64,000 nt of DNA from Girardia tigrina (lineage: Eukaryota), in assembly GCA_001938485.1 (NCBI GenBank), contig MQRK01246099.1:1-64000 (forward strand), in the 5' to 3' direction. Position numbers and translations under genes: made by a program. The notes beneath the pieces were generated by a model. That model worked only from the letters and a program-made list of their open reading frames with translations, was not told the DNA's origin and did not search any database. Below, piece after piece: positions 15,883-37,964 of the stretch. Each line of letters starts with the position of its first letter. Positions within the stretch are counted from its first letter, which is position 1.

Positions 15883-16745
15883 NNNNNNNNNNNNNNNNNN
15901 NNNNNNNNNNNNNNNNNNNNNNNNNNNNNNNNTATATATATATATATATTATAAAGTAAGCTAATAAAAAAATGGAAAATAAAAGAAAGACCTGAATTGT
16001 CGAAAGTAAATATGACTGTTAAGGATAAAAAATGAAACCGAAATGGTGATGTATAAAATTATTTTTTATTAGATTAAAATATATTTTTCAAGAAATTTCA
16101 AAAAAATCCAATTTAAATAAATTTAAAAATAAAAATTTGTTCTGAAAAAATAGTGAATAACTAAGAATTTTGTTTTAATAATTCAGATTTGTATTATTAC
16201 ATTTTTCTTAAAAATCACTTGTTTTTGGTATGATTGAAAATTCTAATTCAAAGGATTCTTCAATGCGGAATTGTACTAACACTGAAGTCAAATTACTATG
16301 TTTCGGCAAGAGACACATTCAGTTACATATTAAAAATCATGTCAGTAAATTTATAGAATTTATATACTGCCACATTTGTCTTTAAAATGATAACCATAAT
16401 TATTACCTGATTTAAAAATTGTAAAGATTTTCTTAAATATAGAGATTTTAAAAGAGTCAGCTGAAAACTTGCTAAAAAATTTTTTTAAATATTATTTCAA
16501 AAAAGAAATTATATTTATAATTTATATAATAATTATTTATGTTATATAATTTATATATATTTAATTATAAAGAAATTATATAATAATTATTTCATATAAT
16601 TATTTAAAATAATTATTTAATTTACACAAAATTAATTTTTCTTTTTATTTTTAACCAATTGAATTTGTAAAATAAGTTTATTGGAGGAATCTTTTTTTGT
16701 AAAAAAATGCTAATAACAAATTTTTATTAGATAAGTTTCCTTTGG

Positions 16746-17404
16746 ATGTACTCAAATACCAGCTCACTTGAGTCATACTATTTGAATGTACGTTATATGA
16801 ATATTGTCTTTTACACGATTTTAGGCATTCTAGGACTCTTGTTTAATATCATATTATTGTTTGTTTTGTATCAGTCAAAATCGAGAAAACTAAACGAACT
16901 GTTTCTCTTCATTTTAGCTTTGGACGGTTGTCTGTTCTCTGTATTTGATATTGCTATTTCCGTATCAAATGTATTTTCTCTTTCCTTTTTCGAAATAAGT
17001 TCGTATATCAATTGGAACTTGAAATGTAAAATTATTTTATTTTTTGAATATTACTTTATATATTTGAATTTGCACGTTTTTATGTGTCTCACGGCGAATC
17101 GATTCGCATTAATTGTGAAACGAAATTTCCAAATGATTTATATGGAAAGAAAATGTTTTTACATGTCAATTTTGATTGTATTTCCAATTTCCAATACTTT
17201 TTTCACATCTCTCTCGTACTTTTATCCAACTGTTTCCTCAGCTCATTCTTTAGACGTGTTTACATGCTATTTACGAAATATTCCAGTCCTACTAACCCTT
17301 GACTTTTTCCTGTTTCCTTTGTTGGTTATGATGTTATCTTATATCGCCATTATTGTATATTTTATTATACAAAGGAAAAAAGTACAAACAATTATTATGA
17401 AAAA
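16746..17404 (+). CDS. Class A (rhodopsin-like) GPCR, exon 1 (TM1-TM5)
   Basis: N-glycosylation site NTS; TM1 GLLFN; TM2 LALDG; TM3 Cys and ANRF; TM5 FLFPLLVMMLSY; donor AA|GTGAGT at 17405, phase 2. Confidence 0.85.
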
Positions 17405-17592
17405 GTGAGTTATTTTCTGAAATATCAAAAATAATTCGTCATTAAAACGATTAAAAGGATAAATAATTTTATTACAAATAAAAAAATGTTATTTTTTAAT
17501 TTAATAAAATTTTTAATCATTAATATTAAACTCTAAATTATTTTATTTGCTTTTTTATATTTATTTTATATTATTGAATTTATTTATATATA

Positions 17593-26569: not shown

Positions 26570-27520
26570 CAGTGGCGTACCGAAGTGGGGGAGGGGGCGG
26601 GGAAGGCACCTGCCCCGGACGCCGGAGAATGAGGGGCACTAAAATCAGCATCAAAACGGCAGATTGAATCGTGCGCTGGATTTACATGTGTCATGCAAAT
26701 TATTTATCAATTGTAAATCAATTTTATTTATTTACTTATTAATCTCCAAATTTATTACGTCAAGCAAAAACTTAAGTGGAACTAAACATTGCAAAAGAAA
26801 GCGACAACAAAAAACAGGTGCTAAAAAATGTGACTCATTTATGCAGCAGTTTTTAAAACAATGATCAGAACAGGAAATTGACAGCCATGGATATGGATAA
26901 GCTTGGACAAAACACTATAACTGATCCATCGGAATGCCTAAATCAGCTGGACGACCTTGATGACATATTCCAGCAAGACCTCTGATGATATCCAACAGCC
27001 CTGTGCCGTACTGGCTGAGTTTTATGAAACTGATATAGATGGTACTAAACTGTTTGCAGAAATCAGTGACTGCAATAAGTTGATGAAATCACGGTCAGAT
27101 GCTGCCCCAAGAAGCCCATTGGAATTAATTTCATTCATTATTTCCTATGACATATTTTCAAACCTACGGATTGGTTTGAAAAGGAAATTGACTATTTCTG
27201 TGTCACTTGCAAGCTGTGAGCGTTCATTTATCAAACTAAAACTAATTTAAACTTATTTGAGATTTTTAATGGGACAGAAGCGTTGGTTTGACTTGGTACT
27301 ACTAAGTACAGAGATGGAGCTAGTCGCATCAATTAACTTTTTTGATGCAATTGAAAACTACAAATGCAAAATCACAAAAAGTTAGTTTTTAATAAAATTT
27401 TATATTTGTTACAGATTTCTTTTGTTAACTTCGTAAATTTTGTAAAATTTTTGTAACAAGTAAATTTTGTATGAGTGTTCTTATATGTGGGGTTTCCTCA
27501 TAAATAAAACCTTGGTTTTA
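26570..27520 (+). mobile_element. Internally deleted hAT element
   Basis: CAGTGGCGTACC terminus; dimerisation-domain remnant TISVSLASCERSFIKLKLI. Confidence 0.8.
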
Positions 27521-28439
27521 TTTTCATGCACTTAAAAATTGTTTTGCAAAAATAACAATTTTTATAATAAAAATAATCAAAAGAATACAACTGGTGCAAA
27601 TAAATTTCTTTATTTAGTTGCATATATATATATGAAATATGTATATTTACAAAAAATTATATTAAATTAAATTTAAAGAGAATTAATTTATAAAAAGAAG
27701 ATTTAAATTTGAGTGGAAATCATTTGATCTTGGTTCGCTTAAAAATGAAAAAAGAAATTCATTTAAATAATTGATGACTCATCGAGTCATTTTTAAATGA
27801 CTGATTTAGTTGAATGTTCGGTGTGTTTCGGGGTCGGTGTGTGTGCTAGTTGTTGAATATCGTTTCGAGTGGAAAGTGAGAAAATGGTGATTGGATCAAA
27901 TCACTCGCTATGAGTGGTTGACCAATCAGAGGAAGCTGAGAAAAAAGGTGATTTTTTTCAATCATTTTTCAGCATTTACGAATTATTATTCAAACTTCGA
28001 CATCTTAAATTTTTTGGTTGACGCTTTGTAGACATAAATTCGATTTATATATTTTTCGATTGCCCTTAAACAAATTGAATGCAATAAAATTACGTTGTCT
28101 GATTTTTGAACGAACAAATTATTTTCAATTTTTATATTATTAAACTACTTGAACGAATTTTATTTTAATAAATTAGTATTTAAGTAAAATTATTTTTGAT
28201 TACCTGAATCGTGTTTGAGTAGACTGTATGAACTACTTGATTTTCTGAATTGTGTTTGATTCGAATTTAGTTTATGAATTATTATTATTTGGAACGCTGA
28301 AAAGTTTTTTGTAAATTTGATTGAGGGAATTTTTATTTTTAAATTTTGTGAACATTATTTTTTGATTAAAATTTGAAATTGAAGACTGTTGAATTATAAT
28401 GATAATAATGAATTTTCTAAACAACGATACTATACTATA

Positions 28440-28530
28440 ATTGGTCCAGCACGAAACTTCTGAGCTTAAAATCACCCTTCAATGATACGCCTTTGCTACC
28501 ACCTTCTGGTCTTTCAGGTACAACAAAAAT
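28440..28530 (+). promoter_or_regulatory. Degenerate LTR-element leader: half-tRNA-iMet PBS plus acceptor-end mimic
   Basis: ATTGGTCCAGCACG...GAGCTT...CCTTTGCTACCA...CTGGTCTT, collinear with 31620-31710. Confidence 0.5.
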
Positions 28531-28815
28531 AGATTGTTAAATGAAACATTATTTCGAAACCGGATTCAAAAGATGTTTCTAAGAGTTATATATTTTTTAA
28601 TTTTTTATAATGCTACAATAAACAATGCAAAAAACATTTTTGACAAGAGGTTTCATTAAGTAAAGTATAAATGTATTTATGGCGAAGGGTCAATTCCTGT
28701 TTAAGAATAAATTCTGTCAATTAAAACAAAATGCATTATAAATATATATTTTTTAATTTATATTTATATTTGTTCATTTATTTGTTTTTAAGTCTTTATT
28801 TATTTAATAATTTAG

Positions 28816-29074
28816 TAGTCACCATTCAGTAGCATTCTCAGCAGATTCCTTAAAGCTCGTAAGGTCCATGTTAATAATGGTATTCGTATTTACTTTATGC
28901 TATATTCCTTACATAATTTGGGAAGTATTTGGTATAATGAATCCAATTTTTCTCCTCATATCCAAGTTGACTGCTCATTCAACTGTTCTCACTGATCCTC
29001 TTGTATATATTGTCAGTAACAGTAAATATCGAACAATTGTACTAAAAAAAATTTTTAAAAGACATTTGTATTAA
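28816..29074 (+). CDS. Class A GPCR, exon 2 (TM6-TM7-helix 8)
   Basis: TTTAG acceptor in phase with exon 1 (AA|T = Asn); FTLCYIPY, TDPLVY and NSKYR; joined CDS 918 nt, 305 aa. Confidence 0.85.
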
Positions 29075-29169
29075 ACGTTTCCTATATATTAGCTGCTTGT
29101 AATATTTTTTGTTATTTACAATGAGATTACTGATATGTGATTACAAATATAATTATAAAAGAATATTTA

Positions 29170-29460
29170 AATTTGGTGAATATAGTTTGACGGAATATTC
29201 ATTATTTTCACGCACTTTTGAAATAGTTTTTTACTGCCATTAATTAAATCGTGTTCATGCGATTTTTGATTATCATAATTTACTATTATAAAATTAAACA
29301 AATGGTAGAAAAGGATCCTTGAGGAACGCTTTTGCAGAATATACATTGTATTAAAAACACTGAAATGATTTCCAATACTTTTATTGACATCACAATTTTC
29401 TTAAGGACAATTCTCCACAAAACTTTCGGAGTTAGATATTGTTCTTGATTGATAAATTAA
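29170..29460 (-). mobile_element. Diverged LTR fragment with decayed micro-ORF
   Basis: AGAACAATA (decayed AGAACGATG) followed by SNSESFVENCP*ENCDVNKSIGNHFSVFN. Confidence 0.5.
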
Positions 29461-30694
29461 AATTCTATTTCTAAACATCTAATATTTCGAAAAAATTAAA
29501 ATTACAATTCCTTACTAAAATATTTTAAAAAATATTTAAACTCATTTTTAATATATTATCTATGATTAAATAATGATTAAATGAAGAACTCGATTTTAAA
29601 TAATACTTTTGAAGAGTTTATAAGCTTCCAAATAGAGTTTAGTGGTGACTTCTTTTTCATTCTTTTGTACAATTTTCTAAAATTCTATCTTCTATGGGTT
29701 TTTCGTCCTTTCCTTGAAAAATATTAGGTAATTCCATTTGAGACAGGTCCTATAATCAGACATTGAAATCTTCATTTGAGTTTATTTGGTACGAACATGT
29801 ACAGTAACTCATGGTCTACGATTCATTGTAGAATCTTTAAAAAATAATTGTTTGAAAAAATGAATGATAAAGGTATTTTGAAAAAATGAAAACTGAAATC
29901 ACTCAAAATATCATATCCTAAATCTTAGCCTAAGCGTCATTTTTCGAAATTTAACCGATCGTAAAAACAAAATATATTTGAAAAATATCGAGTTATTTTA
30001 TCATGCTTTCATTAATATTGTATATATTTTGATACGACCTTTTTATCCTTATATATAATTAAACTTCTTTTATAGCTGTTTATAACCCCCCGGGCTTGTC
30101 CCCTGGATCCGCCTTTGATTTTTATATAATTAAATATACATTTATATAGTATATTGGTTTAGTAATTTCATCTTCTTTTTCCAGTACTTACAGGAAAGTC
30201 TAGCTATAAGCGACTGCCTCCTGCGGGTTGGTTTGGAAGAAGGAAAATTATTTTTTATTATTTATATTGTTATTTAAAATTTATAATTTATTTTCATTTA
30301 TTATTAAATTTCAAAATGTAAATTATTGTCGTATTTGGTAAGATCAATTGATCCATAACACCAGGGACTATAATAATTCTTATTATAAAAATTCAATTAT
30401 TATATAAATTCAATTTTAAATTAAAAACTTACTATTTGTAATATTCAAAGTATTGTTTTGTTAGTCTGATTGCGTCATCATACAATCCATACACTATTCG
30501 AAAATATGGAAACTATCACGAATAGTAATCCAAAATAATATAATAGAGAATAATCTACAACCAAAGTTATTCGATTTTTTTGTCAGATAAAAAGATTCCT
30601 AATCCGACTGATAATCATCATCAGATTGTTTCAAAAACTGAACATATTAATATATATAAACAATAATTTATTTGAATAGAACATTTACTGAAAC

Positions 30695-30950
30695 ATTTAA
30701 ACTTATTTGAGATCTTCAATGGGACAGAAGCATTGGTTTGACTTGGTACTACTAAGTACAGAGATGGAGCTAGTCGCATCAATTAACTTTTTTGATGCAA
30801 TTGAAAACTTTTGCAAATGCAAAATCACGAAAAGTTGGTTTTTAATAAAATGTTATATTTACTACAGATTTCTTTTATTAACTTTGTTAGTATTACAAGT
30901 AAATTTTATATGAGTGTTCTTATGTGCGGGGTTTCCTCATAAATAAGACC
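30695..30950 (+). repeat. Second copy of hAT 3' segment 27245-27510
   Basis: Near-identical run TTTAAACTTATTTGAGAT...GGGGTTTCCTCATAAATAA. Confidence 0.85.
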
Positions 30951-31613
30951 ATCAATAACAAAAAAATATTTTACTAAAGATCATTTTACGAAACATTCCT
31001 ACGAACTGTTCAGTACTTATTACCTGATTGTTATTCAAGTAACTTACTAATATTGATTGTTCTCTTGCAACTACTGTTTGGAATTCAAATTGCGTATTAA
31101 TAATATATGTTATTATCATTATTTATATTTCAAATTTAAATTCGATCCCAAATTACAATTTCGAAATAAAACAAAAAATTCTTCTCCCCAATTCAAAAAC
31201 ATACACAAAAATCAAAAATGCCATAAAATAATAAAAAAAATAATGATTAACTAAAAAGAAAATAAAATATGGATACATCTCTAACCAAAACAACATTTCA
31301 TACACTAAAAAAATATTATGTTGAATATAAACTGTCACGACAAACACAAATAAAATTCGAATTTGAGGCATGTAAAACAATTTTTCGATGGAGAGTGATG
31401 TATTGGGAGTGAAATGACTCGCTCTGACAAAATGACTAATCAGACAAAGTCGGGGTAGAGATAAATTTTTATTGCTGTTTATTGAAAGATTTAACTTTTG
31501 TCTCAAAAAATTTATATCTATAATTAAGTTTTTAATTTCTTTGGTCTCAGTTATTGATTGAAAATTCATATTAAATTGATTTAAAAAATGATCTCGAAGA
31601 ACAAAATTTTAAA

Positions 31614-31710
31614 CTCACAATGGGCCCAGCGCACAGAGACCGAGCTTTTAAGTCTTCTAAAGAGTGCATCTGCTACCATCATCCGGTCTTCGGGTAATTC
31701 AGGGATCGGT
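31614..31710 (+). promoter_or_regulatory. LTR end (CTCACA), half-tRNA-iMet PBS and tRNA acceptor-end mimic
   Basis: ATGGGCCCAGCGC at 31620-32 is complementary to the tRNA-iMet anticodon arm; TCTGCTACCA at 31669-78 equals the tRNA-iMet 3' end. Confidence 0.65.
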
Positions 31711-32145
31711 CAGAATAACTTATTTTCCTATTTTGTTTGTGATGATTATTCCATTTCTTCTTTTTACTTTTTCTGTTAATTGTTGTATTAAATTATATTT
31801 TACAATACCAAGATTATTATTCTATTATCTAATAGTTAATTGTAAAGTCAAAAGGGATTTTGGATTCTATTTGATTACGTACGAAGTTCCTTTTTATTTT
31901 ATAATTATACAATATTATATATGTATTACGGAAGCGAGTTAATGAGATCAATGAATCTTATTAACTCGACTACGTAATCTCGTAACAAAAAAAATAATAT
32001 GATCAAAGTAATAAACGAAACTATAGATGTAATAATTATTTAACACTCTAACGGAAAGAATAATAAAAAAAGTATATTCTAGATCACAATAAAAAAAGGA
32101 AAAGGTCCGTCAAGGGATTGTTAAATAATCAAATTTCTTTCCTTT

Positions 32146-32358
32146 GATCGTTAATAAAACAGTCGATGGATGACCAATTAAATAGGAATATTTCTTGTTA
32201 ATCGTCAATGAAACAGTTATTTGATGGTTATTTAAAATAGGGATATGTTTTGTTGATCATCAAATAAACGGATAATGAATCACAATTAAATGGGAATATT
32301 TTCTTGATCGTCAATAAAACAGTTACTAGAGGACCAGTTAAATAGCAATATTTCTTGT
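32146..32358. repeat. Minisatellite of four ~54-bp units
   Basis: Consensus-like GATCGTCAATAAAACAGT...AATTAAATAGGAATATTTCTTGTT repeated. Confidence 0.8.
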
Positions 32359-32535
32359 GTTCAGGAAACGAGAATAATATTTCTCGGATTCGAATTAATA
32401 TTACTTAAAATGAGAGCCAATTTAATATTACTTTATAATATTTCTGATCGATTTCTTGATCAGATTTGAAATTTAAATATTTTGCTAATAGCAATATTTT
32501 TATTATTGCTATTCAGCATTAATCGTCGAAAAAAA

Positions 32536-32946
32536 ATGTCCGGACAATCTGACGAAACGCTGCAACAGATTATAAGGTGCGGGCATTGCAATTTTGGTCG
32601 TCTGCTGCCTGATCATCGTATTACTGCTCGTTATCCTCTATTTGATTATCGAGAAATACTTTTGTAAAAAACAACAAAAAAAATAAATGAAAAATTTAAA
32701 AACTCTAAGAAAAATAATACACACTAAATAAAAATAAAAATAAATAGTTACAGGCAAAAAATTGTCATAGACGAAAATAGAGATTTTAAACGCACACACC
32801 CATTATTCAGAAGGTATAGAAAGTCGGTAAAAAGCCAAAGTCTGCAACAATATGCATGTTTCAATATAGATAATTTAAAGTATACACAGAGTGTTATTGC
32901 TTTCGAGGTTGGAATGAGTCCTAAAATTTTTTGTGATTCCGAATGA
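32536..32946 (+). CDS. Candidate two-exon 106-aa ORF of unknown function (32536-32663 + 32754-32946)
   Basis: AAAAA-ATG start; GT..CAG intron joins TT|G in frame; CGHC motif; the intron is A-rich, so support is weak. Confidence 0.3.
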
Positions 32947-33929
32947 TCCCGATGATTGTTGTTTTACAATTGGATGATAAATCCAAGTTCCATAGTAACT
33001 GTAAAAATCTGTAACTTTTTGCAATGAAAAATTGTGATTCGAGTATTTTGTTGATATAAAAAATTATTTAAAAATGAACTTGTCATCAAATTACGATAAA
33101 TACTTCAAAGAAAAATTTGAAATGTGTTTCATTGATTAAGTTTATGAAATGGAAGTCTGTAAAATAATATTGTACTTTGTATCACTTTTTATTTACTGAA
33201 AAATGATTTGATTTATCAATTTTGTGAGATAAATGAAAATAAAGAGAGGGTTGAAATCTATAGAAAAAACTGAAATAAACACATATTTTGAAGTTGAAGA
33301 TTTCCAATGAAAGACGTTGAGAATTAAAAATAGTGATTAGATGTTCTTAGAACTACTCAGAATTATTATTAGAAGTTAATTCCGACATCAAATCAAACTT
33401 TTATTATAAAACAACTTTTTCAAAAAATGTGATTACCACTAATATTTAAAAAAACTTTTTTTGAGAAAAAATTTGTTTTATAAATCTTAAGCTGGTATAT
33501 ATAAAAATATTTATAATATTAATATTCATTTATTTTCATTATTATTTTACCATTAATAAATTTTATCAATTTAAAATTAATTACAACATTAATCAAAATA
33601 AATATATAATATAATTATTAAAATAAACTAACAGACCGATAAAAGTGAACTTATATGTGAGTTAGCTTAATTTTATCTACAAATAGGACCACATTATAAT
33701 TAGACTAAAGAAGTTTTTTTATATAGAATAGAAATTACTATATTTTATTTTCTTTTAAGTTATTGAAAACAATATATTCGAGATAACGATAATACTTAAT
33801 ACTAGTATAATGTATTTTAACGTAATAACCCAAATCAAAATATGATAAAAGAAATCGTTAGAACAACAAATAATAAAATCTAACCACATTACTCTGAAAA
33901 TGATAGTCTGTCTTTAAAATAGATTATAA

Positions 33930-37424: not shown

Positions 37425-37495
37425 TAATAATAATAACAATAATAATAATAATAATAATAAAAATAATATTAATAATAATAATAATAATAATAATG
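37425..37495. repeat. (ATA)n microsatellite
   Basis: Visible TAA/ATA array. Confidence 0.9.
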
Positions 37496-37964
37496 GTTCG
37501 ATACAATCCCCAGGTTTTCATAGAGACAAACCTGTGGTAGCCGAGTAATGTCGCATTTGGTGTTGTTGCTGTTCGTGTTGGGCACATTTTATAGATAACC
37601 TTTTTTTCAGATTTTCATCATTTTTTCGACTTTAGTAATAGAGTTTTTTATTTTATTTTAAATGGTTAAAAATGATTTAGATCAATAGAAATATAAAATA
37701 CAAGATCAAGCCTTTCAAAAGGAAAATTCAAATTTAAAGAAAATATTGTTCACAAACATTTTAACAAGGAATAAATTCTCAGCAAAATTCATATAGCAAA
37801 TCGTTAACTCTACTTCGTTAATATTTTAACAAATAATCCGTAAAAAATTCGGACAATATTGAAATTTCGTTTTAGCAAAATATCCGAAAAAATTCTTTTC
37901 AGAAAAATTATTCAACAAAATAAATTTTAATAAGAAATTTAATAAATAATGGAAAATTTTTATT

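What the first reader, a model, noticed from the sequence alone, without database searches (positions are those of the whole stretch)
31614..31710. Bipartite tRNA-iMet site: half-tRNA PBS plus a sense mimic of the acceptor end, in three diverged leaders
Seen: immediately after an LTR-like end (CTCACA) lies ATGGGCCCAGCGC, and ~37 nt later TCTGCTACCA. The same ordered blocks recur at 28440-28530 (ATTGGTCCAGCACG..GAGCTT..CCTTTGCTACCA..GGTCTT) with a diverged spacer, and more weakly at 55816 (ATGGGCCCAGCAC..CTCTGACTAC). Known: animal tRNA-iMet contains GTGCTGGGCCCAT (anticodon arm), begins AGCAGAG and ends CTCTGCTACCA; copia and Ty5 prime with 5' half tRNA-iMet (copia PBS GGTTATGGGCCCAG). The first block here is antisense and the second is sense to the tRNA, so this is not a tRNA pseudogene. 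Inference: the element RNA pairs with both the anticodon arm and the first 6-7 nt of the tRNA, displacing and mimicking its 3' half including ACCA, with a primer ending at the anticodon rather than at the copia site. The only LTRs in the window with a matching terminus are gypsy-linked, and half-tRNA priming in gypsy would be unusual.
Basis: partly seen in the sequence, partly recalled or inferred. Interest (0 to 1): 0.78.

Follow-up and report, generated by a model that had tools for sequence, protein, structure and literature searches.

The report
Retrotransposon end grips and gates primer
The two tRNA-like blocks are real but sit inside the end repeat of a BEL/Pao jumping gene that has an ordinary tRNA primer site; one block likely folds back to cover that site, and the other is predicted to grip the far half of the same primer tRNA.

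Summary
The motifs are real; the half-tRNA-primer reading is not supported. Window 31075-31717 is a solo LTR of a BEL/Pao family (neither gypsy nor copia). Both blocks lie inside its last ~100 nt; 'CTCACA' is not the LTR end. Where the element continues, an ordinary 18-nt PBS for the intact 3' end of host tRNA-iMet follows the true end (34 junctions, control 0).

Block 2 (TCTGCTACCA) is best read as a cis anti-PBS. It extends a 17-bp hairpin over the PBS (89% of cells paired) and changes together with a PBS variant. Block 1 is an exact 13-nt antisense to the tRNA anticodon arm. It occurs 1,233 times in the genome (control 1), survives unalignable spacers, is accompanied by a D-arm-antisense block, and sits downstream of the PBS in a sister family.

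25 of 35 junctions carry a 3-nt insert in the PBS; exact reversions recur, as copying of an intact primer predicts.

Likely mechanism: the tRNA docks by its 5' half, opens the covered PBS and primes from its CCA end (inferred, not shown). The third site (55816) is an LTR scrap beside mariner DNA. Precedents exist in Ty1, Ty3 and HIV; my searches found none for BEL/Pao.

The parts
31075..31717 (+). Solo LTR (643 nt) of a BEL/Pao family; starts TGTT, decayed end GAATA; flanks ACTAC/ACTTA (3 of 5 match)
   Evidence: Profile of family LTRs matches 31075-31715, E 2e-34; colinear blast to L004 LTR; flanks read
31417..31445 (+). Decayed CCAAT-box palindrome of the LTR promoter region (function inferred)
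   Evidence: Same palindrome upstream of the motif in many relatives; window letters
31620..31632 (+). Block 1: antisense to tRNA-iMet nt 23-35 (anticodon and 5' strand of the anticodon arm); 12 of 13 match, the change allows G-U
31633..31668 (+). Variable spacer (19-38 nt across the family); its 3' end carries a short D-arm-antisense block, weak in this copy
   Evidence: Spacer lengths; D block at least 6 of 7 pairs in 49 of 93 ends versus 6 of 93 and 0 of 93 in controls
31669..31678 (+). Block 2: anti-PBS, complementary to the element's own primer-binding site; also complementary to tRNA nt 1-6
   Evidence: Covariation count; folds
31678..31714 (+). Terminal hairpin of the LTR (17 bp with a GNRA-type loop in intact copies; decayed here)
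27619..28513 (+). Second, older LTR of the same family; blocks at 28440-28453 and 28494-28501; 3' arm of the hairpin and true ends not recognisable
   Evidence: Profile hits 27619-28106 (E 2e-16) and 28363-28513 (E 3e-5)
37495..37590 (-).
   Evidence: Profile hit E 0.014; weak (E 0.22)
55811..55834 (+). Isolated scrap with block 1 only, probably an LTR remnant abutting a truncated mariner
   Evidence: E 0.011; mariner homology starts about 55843; transposase at 56158-56460

Best explanation
The site is the 3' end of a BEL/Pao solo LTR whose family has an ordinary 18-nt tRNA-iMet PBS after the LTR; block 2 likely folds back over that PBS, and block 1 with the D-arm block is predicted to bind the 5' half of the primer tRNA. 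Shown from sequence: LTR boundaries, family, PBS, complementarity, conservation and covariation. Inferred: in the element RNA the hairpin plus anti-PBS keeps the first 10 nt of the PBS paired; an intact tRNA-iMet docks through its anticodon and D arms; its acceptor strands then swap partners with the like-sequence anti-PBS:PBS helix (tRNA 3' end onto the PBS, tRNA 5' end onto the anti-PBS), probably with help from Gag; reverse transcription starts at the tRNA CCA end. The extra grip would compensate for a covered and often interrupted PBS.
For: LTR ends: 7 of 60 copies had both ends recognisable; 5-bp flanks matched fully in 4 (two are duplicates), 4 of 5 in 1, 3 of 5 in 2; two-LTR element L223 has AAGAT on both sides. 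PBS: 34 junctions, control 0, antisense to the host tRNA gene; window-type ends L204-L206 also lead into it. Family: Ub-DUF1759-protease-RT-Peptidase_A17 in L226. Anti-PBS helix: 89% of cells paired, pair 9-70 is C-G in 16 and U-A in 6 of 31 distinct rows, slid controls 34-47%; 29 of 34 single folds pair it. Block 1: 33 of 39 LTR ends chosen without the blocks carry it with at most 3 mismatches versus 0 of 117 upstream windows; column conservation 79-96% versus mostly 36-79% in flanks; it lies 219 and 408 nt downstream of the PBS in a sister family. Other iMet-PBS families with at least 10 nt exact antisense: 3 of 15 here, 2 of 55 in metagenomes, 0.05 expected each. Exact PBS reversions nested at 3 places in the insert-bearing clade.
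Against: No RNA probing, priming assay or transcript ends; the R/U5 border is unmapped (AATAAA not enriched). RNAalifold returned a different, weak structure, although the named structure scores -39.5 versus -6.6 on the same alignment. Eight of 31 rows break pair 9-70 and 9 of 31 break pair 14-65; rows are related, so shuffle controls overstate significance. Block 1 shows no G-U bias (C>T 33 at 5 sites, G>A 29 at 4 sites), so trans pairing rests on conservation alone. The anti-PBS raises the PBS opening cost only from a median 9.6 to 14.0 kcal/mol. The fully exchanged complex is a pseudoknot that the folding program cannot score; co-folds gave mixed states. 53 of 55 metagenome families lack a long block, so it is not needed in general.
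Confidence: 0.62

Rival explanations
1. The hairpin and anti-PBS are functional RNA structure, but block 1 is kept for another reason: a self-complementary GGGCCC dimerisation loop, an upstream AUG that tunes translation, or a DNA-binding site.
For: Block 1 contains a 6-nt palindrome and starts with AUG, preceded by A in 76 of 84 copies; it is out of frame with ubiquitin-gag in the sister family; no G-U bias.
Against: Seven further bases outside the palindrome match the tRNA; a separate D-arm block lies in tRNA order; another family keeps a 13-nt D-arm block instead. The frames after the AUG were not tested systematically for conservation.
Confidence: 0.17
2. The blocks are relics of primer read-through: reverse transcriptase once copied the whole tRNA into an ancestor, and the pieces are inherited without present function.
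For: Metagenome locus L284 has an almost full-length antisense tRNA-iMet directly after an LTR-like end, while its relative L249 has only the 18-nt PBS, so the route seems to exist.
Against: An exact 13-mer persists across dozens of unalignable spacers (100 of 138 matches listed) and at different positions in different families; neutral relics would decay with the spacer. It may explain origin, not retention.
Confidence: 0.1
3. Ty3-like bridging: the blocks lie in R, so the copy at the 3' end of the RNA binds the tRNA 5' half while the PBS binds its 3' end, circularising or dimerising the genome.
For: Ty3 and Drosophila gypsy have second tRNA sites near the RNA 3' end (PMC5371799, PMC1635307; passages read). 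The R/U5 border is unmapped.
Against: In the sister family block 1 sits in the leader, present once per RNA; the anti-PBS needs the PBS next to it.
Confidence: 0.08
4. One reading: a 5' half of tRNA-iMet ending at the anticodon primes at block 1.
For: Block 1 ends exactly at the anticodon and is often preceded by CA (6 of 30 carriers); copia and Ty5 use internal tRNA ends (PMC5371799, passages).
Against: The LTR continues about 85 nt past block 1; a full PBS follows the true end; PBS reversions fit an intact primer; none of the first 30 carriers of the exact 13-mer read as a PBS directly after an LTR end, though 10 were judged by eye.
Confidence: 0.03

Closest known systems
Ty1 extended primer interactions (boxes 0, 1, 2.1 with tRNA-iMet; PMC3592414, passages read)
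   Same: Same primer species; a short or split PBS is backed by extra template blocks that pair with the tRNA outside its 3' end.
   Different: Ty1 is a copia-type yeast element with a 10-nt PBS. Here it is BEL/Pao with an 18-nt PBS; the blocks lie upstream inside the LTR, include the anticodon arm, and sit beside an anti-PBS.
Ty3 bipartite PBS and Drosophila gypsy second tRNA site (PMC5371799, PMC1635307; passages read)
   Same: Second binding sites for other arms of the primer tRNA; Ty3 pairs the D arm with LTR sequence.
   Different: Those sites lie kilobases away near the RNA 3' end; here they are within 100 nt of the PBS in most subfamilies.
HIV-1 A-rich loop:anticodon and PAS interactions (PMC7793103 abstract; PMC11181671 passages)
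   Same: Template sequence just 5' of the PBS pairs with the primer's anticodon region.
   Different: The HIV contact is a short loop interaction (recalled); here it is 13 contiguous pairs that would open the anticodon stem, plus D-arm pairs. Retroviral U5 hairpins that cover part of the PBS are recalled, not read.
Imperfect PBS of mouse ERVs ETn, MusD, IAP (Cullen and Schorn 2020, PMC7472051; passages read)
   Same: The commonest PBS is imperfect, perfect ones recur across the tree, and escape from 3' tRNA fragments is proposed.
   Different: Here the imperfection is mostly one 3-nt insert matched by a compensating change in an anti-PBS, in an invertebrate BEL/Pao lineage.
Copia and Ty5 half-tRNA priming (PMC5371799, passages read)
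   Same: Antisense to the tRNA-iMet anticodon arm.
   Different: There it is the PBS right after the LTR; here it is inside the LTR and a normal PBS exists.

Membership tests
BEL/Pao LTR retrotransposons (Belpaoviridae) | Pao-type RNase H region (Peptidase_A17) and DUF1759 gag | tested here: met
   PF05380 E 1e-37 and PF03564 E 2e-9 in L226; also L183, L229, L235; 47 of 47 homologues carry PF05380
BEL/Pao LTR retrotransposons (Belpaoviridae) | Order gag-protease-RT-RNase H-integrase | tested here: met
   gag-PR-RT-RH in L226; integrase-side matches lie downstream in L229, L219, L222. No single copy was read complete.
BEL/Pao LTR retrotransposons (Belpaoviridae) | Direct LTRs with TG...CA ends and short target-site duplication | tested here: met
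   L223: 444-nt LTRs 98% alike, 5-bp duplication
BEL/Pao LTR retrotransposons (Belpaoviridae) | Window solo LTR belongs to these carriers | tested here: met
   Window-type ends L204-L206 lead into the same PBS; L219 has a Pao-type integrase fragment in sense, E 3e-7; L220 has a ubiquitin-like start read by eye, no Pfam hit
BEL/Pao LTR retrotransposons (Belpaoviridae) | Lineage (Sinbad, Suzu, Pao, Bel, Tas, Flow, Dan) | not tested
   No named references in the homologue list
Half-tRNA-primed elements (copia, Ty5) | Anticodon-arm PBS directly after the 5' LTR | tested here: not met
   Block lies inside the LTR; 18-nt 3'-end PBS follows
Half-tRNA-primed elements (copia, Ty5) | Integrase before RT | tested here: not met
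   Protease leads straight into RT in L226
Ty3/gypsy | Gypsy-type pol | tested here: not met
   Pao-specific domains in the carriers
Ginger DNA transposons | Terminal inverted repeats, 4-bp duplication (PMC2836005, passages) | tested here: not met
   No inverted copy of the end within 20 loci; two inverted pairs (L049, L066) are separate copies; duplications are 5 bp
Elements with extended primer-template pairing (Ty1, Ty3, HIV type) | Physical pairing of the tRNA outside the PBS | not testable with these tools
   Only complementarity, conservation and computed energies
Self-priming elements (Tf1 type) | Primer is the RNA's own 5' end; no tRNA-length PBS (recalled) | tested here: inconclusive
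   Start site unmapped, but the PBS matches the tRNA over 18 nt and reverts to the tRNA form in copies whose anti-PBS keeps the variant

The most novel reading that the evidence does not exclude
The LTR end is a lock that tells an intact primer from its fragments. The PBS is covered by the anti-PBS and split by a 3-nt insert that falls at or beside positions 10-11 of an 18-nt 3' tRNA fragment, where an Argonaute would cut. Only a whole tRNA-iMet, gripping by its anticodon and D arms, opens it by strand exchange. This would be a structural counter-defence of a retrotransposon lineage against tRNA-fragment silencing, with modules that move between LTR and leader.
Probability: 0.2. Interest if true: 0.8.

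Novelty: new variant of a known kind. Interest (0 to 1): 0.5.

Why it matters
How BEL/Pao elements select and anneal their primer seems barely described: the two BEL/Pao papers I searched never use the words tRNA, PBS or primer binding, and five library searches pairing BEL/Pao terms with primer terms gave 0, 0, 2, 4 and 2 listed papers, none on this by title or abstract start (subscription journals are mostly missing). This family offers more than a thousand natural copies with three tRNA-antisense modules, a covarying anti-PBS and a split PBS that keeps reverting. [quoted passage not shown] It is a variant of known primer-template biology, not a new priming mode.

Tried and rejected
tRNA gene or known RNA family: none in the window or by Rfam over 27000-33000 (three chance hits). 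Minus-strand element using TGGTAGCAGA as its PBS: rejected, since PBS and gag follow on the plus strand. Ginger or MITE with inverted ends, and SINE head: rejected. Left end shared at 27235 and 30687: that repeat reads by eye as a hAT transposase end, not the LTR. Poly(A) site at the CA before block 1: AATAAA not enriched (16 of 93 versus 8-15 in upstream windows). G-U bias in block 1: none. PBS-pairing probability alone does not discriminate: many unrelated families also score above 0.6. RNAalifold structure: weaker than the named one; it probably forbids pairs broken in several decayed copies (my inference). Sequencing runs: only contigs with small shares were offered; they cover a young LTR end in four runs but cannot show start, end or strand, and nothing was laid on the window copy (no proof of absence). 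Viral contigs: none of 63 hits reached 16 of 18 PBS matches. A search for PBS junctions 8-36 nt after block 1 found none, so five carriers near another CAACA-type end stay unclassified. Ty1, Ty5, RSV and Schorn 2017 primary papers were not held. No supplements were consulted. Small-RNA test for tRNA halves: not run.

Full report
Observation. The three sites are in the sequence as described. Block 1 is at 31620-31632 and block 2 at 31669-31678. By a dinucleotide model the window should hold 0.005 near-matches to the 13-mer, and TGCTACCA within 40 nt has p about 2e-4. The window has no tRNA gene and no Rfam family at the site. The third site fails: its second block is mariner DNA, shared by 11 of 11 mariner relatives inspected, none of which has block 1.

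What the repeat is. A genome search gave 40 matches. In the 20 loci fetched, the conserved stretch stops about 95 nt after the start of block 1, mostly at a GGAACA-type end, followed by unrelated flank. Upstream, copies share a CCAAT palindrome, a TGACTCA palindrome and a TGTT start. Seven of 60 copies had both ends recognisable; their 5-bp flanks matched fully in 4 (two are duplicates of each other), at 4 of 5 in one and at 3 of 5 in two. L223 has two 444-nt LTRs, 98% alike, with AAGAT on both sides. The window copy is therefore a solo LTR, 31075-31717. A second old copy spans about 27619-28513.

The real primer site. The family end followed by TGGTAGCAG occurs 34 times, control 0. Three tRNA-Met(CAT) genes lie in L180; the canonical PBS is the exact antisense of the last 18 nt of that tRNA with CCA added. 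Ends of the window's own type (L204-L206) lead into the same PBS. Downstream ORFs give ubiquitin, DUF1759, aspartic protease, RT and Peptidase_A17 in that order in L226; integrase-side matches lie further down in other copies; 47 of 47 homologues carry the Pao domain. The carriers are BEL/Pao and run on the plus strand. All copies read are broken or gapped.

Block 2 is an anti-PBS. On 34 junctions (31 distinct; 4 of 38 left out for N, truncation or indels) I counted a structure of two helices: a 17-bp hairpin and a 10-bp helix between block 2 and the PBS. 90% of cells pair; sliding partners by 1-3 columns gives 34-47%. In the outer helix most changes are G-U compatible, and one pair is C-G in 16 rows and U-A in 6. 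G-U tolerance makes the fold specific to the plus strand. Against: 8 rows break that pair, 9 break another, rows are related, and RNAalifold returned a weak different fold. The named structure scores -39.5 against -6.6 on the same alignment and 29 of 34 single folds contain the helix. The anti-PBS adds a median 4.4 kcal/mol to the cost of opening the PBS.

Block 1 is under strong constraint. The exact 13-mer occurs 1,233 times (control 1); 138 have CTGCTAC 18-45 nt downstream (control 0), across dozens of spacers that do not align. Among 39 ends picked only by terminus or PBS (16 of 55 dropped by a hairpin-likeness filter), 33 carry it with at most 3 mismatches versus 0 of 117 upstream windows, and 33 bind tRNA nt 8-37 better than all 40 shuffled controls. 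In 84 of 101 ends, a set partly chosen with the blocks, its first 12 columns are 79-96% conserved and the spacer is 19-38 nt. The match stops at the anticodon: the next base is A in 76 of 84, which cannot pair with tRNA A37 (its t6A modification is recalled). A D-arm-antisense block precedes the anti-PBS (49 of 93 versus 6 and 0). The three blocks follow the tRNA order 35 to 1. No G-U bias was found in block 1.

The modules move. Of the first 30 exact carriers, 16 match the hairpin profile at E below 0.01 and about 5 more look like truncated family ends; 5 lie about 17-25 nt before another CAACA-type end; 3 belong to a sister ubiquitin-gag family; 1 looks like chance (the last groups judged by eye). 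In the sister family the block sits 219 and 408 nt downstream of a normal PBS (L405, L124). Among iMet-PBS LTR ends, at least 10 nt of exact antisense to the tRNA 5' half occurs in 3 of 15 clusters in this genome (one is this family) and 2 of 55 from metagenomes, 0.05 expected in each. So the feature recurs but is not general.

Split PBS. Of 35 junctions on a tree built without the PBS, anti-PBS and hairpin, 25 carry a 3-nt insert after the eighth PBS base and 10 are canonical; the tree needs 6 changes, at least 4 forced by well-supported branches. Canonical forms are nested at three places in the insert-bearing clade (5 of 28 rows), and 4 of these 5 keep the variant anti-PBS. Exact loss of the insert is what copying of an intact tRNA 3' end predicts; recombination with canonical copies is not excluded. 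Cullen and Schorn describe the same pattern in mouse ERVs (PMC7472051, passages). The insert falls at or beside positions 10-11 of an 18-nt 3' fragment; a random position would do so about one time in six, so this is only a lead.

Mechanism. Shown: anatomy, family, complementarity, conservation, covariation. Inferred: closed hairpin over the PBS; docking of whole tRNA-iMet by anticodon and D arms; exchange of the acceptor strands with the like-sequence anti-PBS:PBS helix; priming from CCA. Co-folds gave docked-but-closed, PBS-annealed, mixed and unbound states; the fully exchanged state is a pseudoknot and was not scored. I put 0.62 on this account. That block 2 pairs with the PBS is more likely (about 0.8) than that block 1 binds tRNA (about 0.7). 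L284, an LTR-like end followed by almost the whole antisense tRNA, suggests primer read-through as an origin.

Comparison. It works like Ty1 boxes, the Ty3 and gypsy second sites and the HIV-1 anticodon contact (passages or abstract only). It is a BEL/Pao member and not a half-tRNA-primed element. Searches pairing BEL/Pao with primer terms showed no description, nor did word look-ups in two BEL/Pao papers; the library lacks most subscription journals, so this is weak evidence of novelty. The scan's own index had no look-alike.

Verdict. Real feature, wrong first mechanism. New variant of a known kind; interest 0.5.

Noticed in passing
L226:1531-2151, L233:2848-3420, L227, L231, L222, L223, L236, L183, L191; sister family L393, L405, L124: The first ORF of these BEL/Pao elements carries a ubiquitin-like domain (PF00240, E down to 1e-20) ending in GG in front of the gag-like region, a junction that host deubiquitinases might cut. 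'Ubiquitin' does not occur in the BEL/Pao survey PMC3118150; no wider search was made.
   Followed up: partly
L224:1745-2185, L230:1297-1707, L201:2404-2961: Hsp90 fragments (PF00183, E to 1e-54) lie between the PBS and gag in some copies; in L201 Hsp90 and ubiquitin pieces share one frame. Looks like host-gene capture into the leader.
   Followed up: partly
L049:7761-8666: A 302-aa ORF of tandem ubiquitin-like domains lies between two inverted ends of this LTR family.
   Followed up: no
L284 (metagenome): An LTR-like end followed by an almost complete antisense copy of tRNA-iMet; the related end in L249 has only the 18-nt PBS. Possibly primer read-through fixed in a genome.
   Followed up: partly
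L117, L119, L121, L128, L143; metagenome L293, L304: Another LTR family here (Pao domains in L196) and two foreign ends carry an 11-14 nt exact antisense to the tRNA-iMet D arm within 30 nt of the PBS.
   Followed up: partly
window 27235-27511 and 30687-30950: Two 87%-alike pieces that read by eye as hAT transposase C-termini, each just left of a family LTR; whether this is target preference or a local duplication was not tested.
   Followed up: no
L389, L390, L399, L410, L411: Block 1 lies about 17-25 nt before a CAACA-type repeat end without the hairpin; upstream sequence is GC-richer and looks like coding cargo. No PBS junction found.
   Followed up: partly
window 16731-17405 and 63339-63638: ORFs with weak matches to a rhodopsin-family receptor (E 8e-5) and PP2C (E 0.002), below curated cut-offs.
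   Followed up: no
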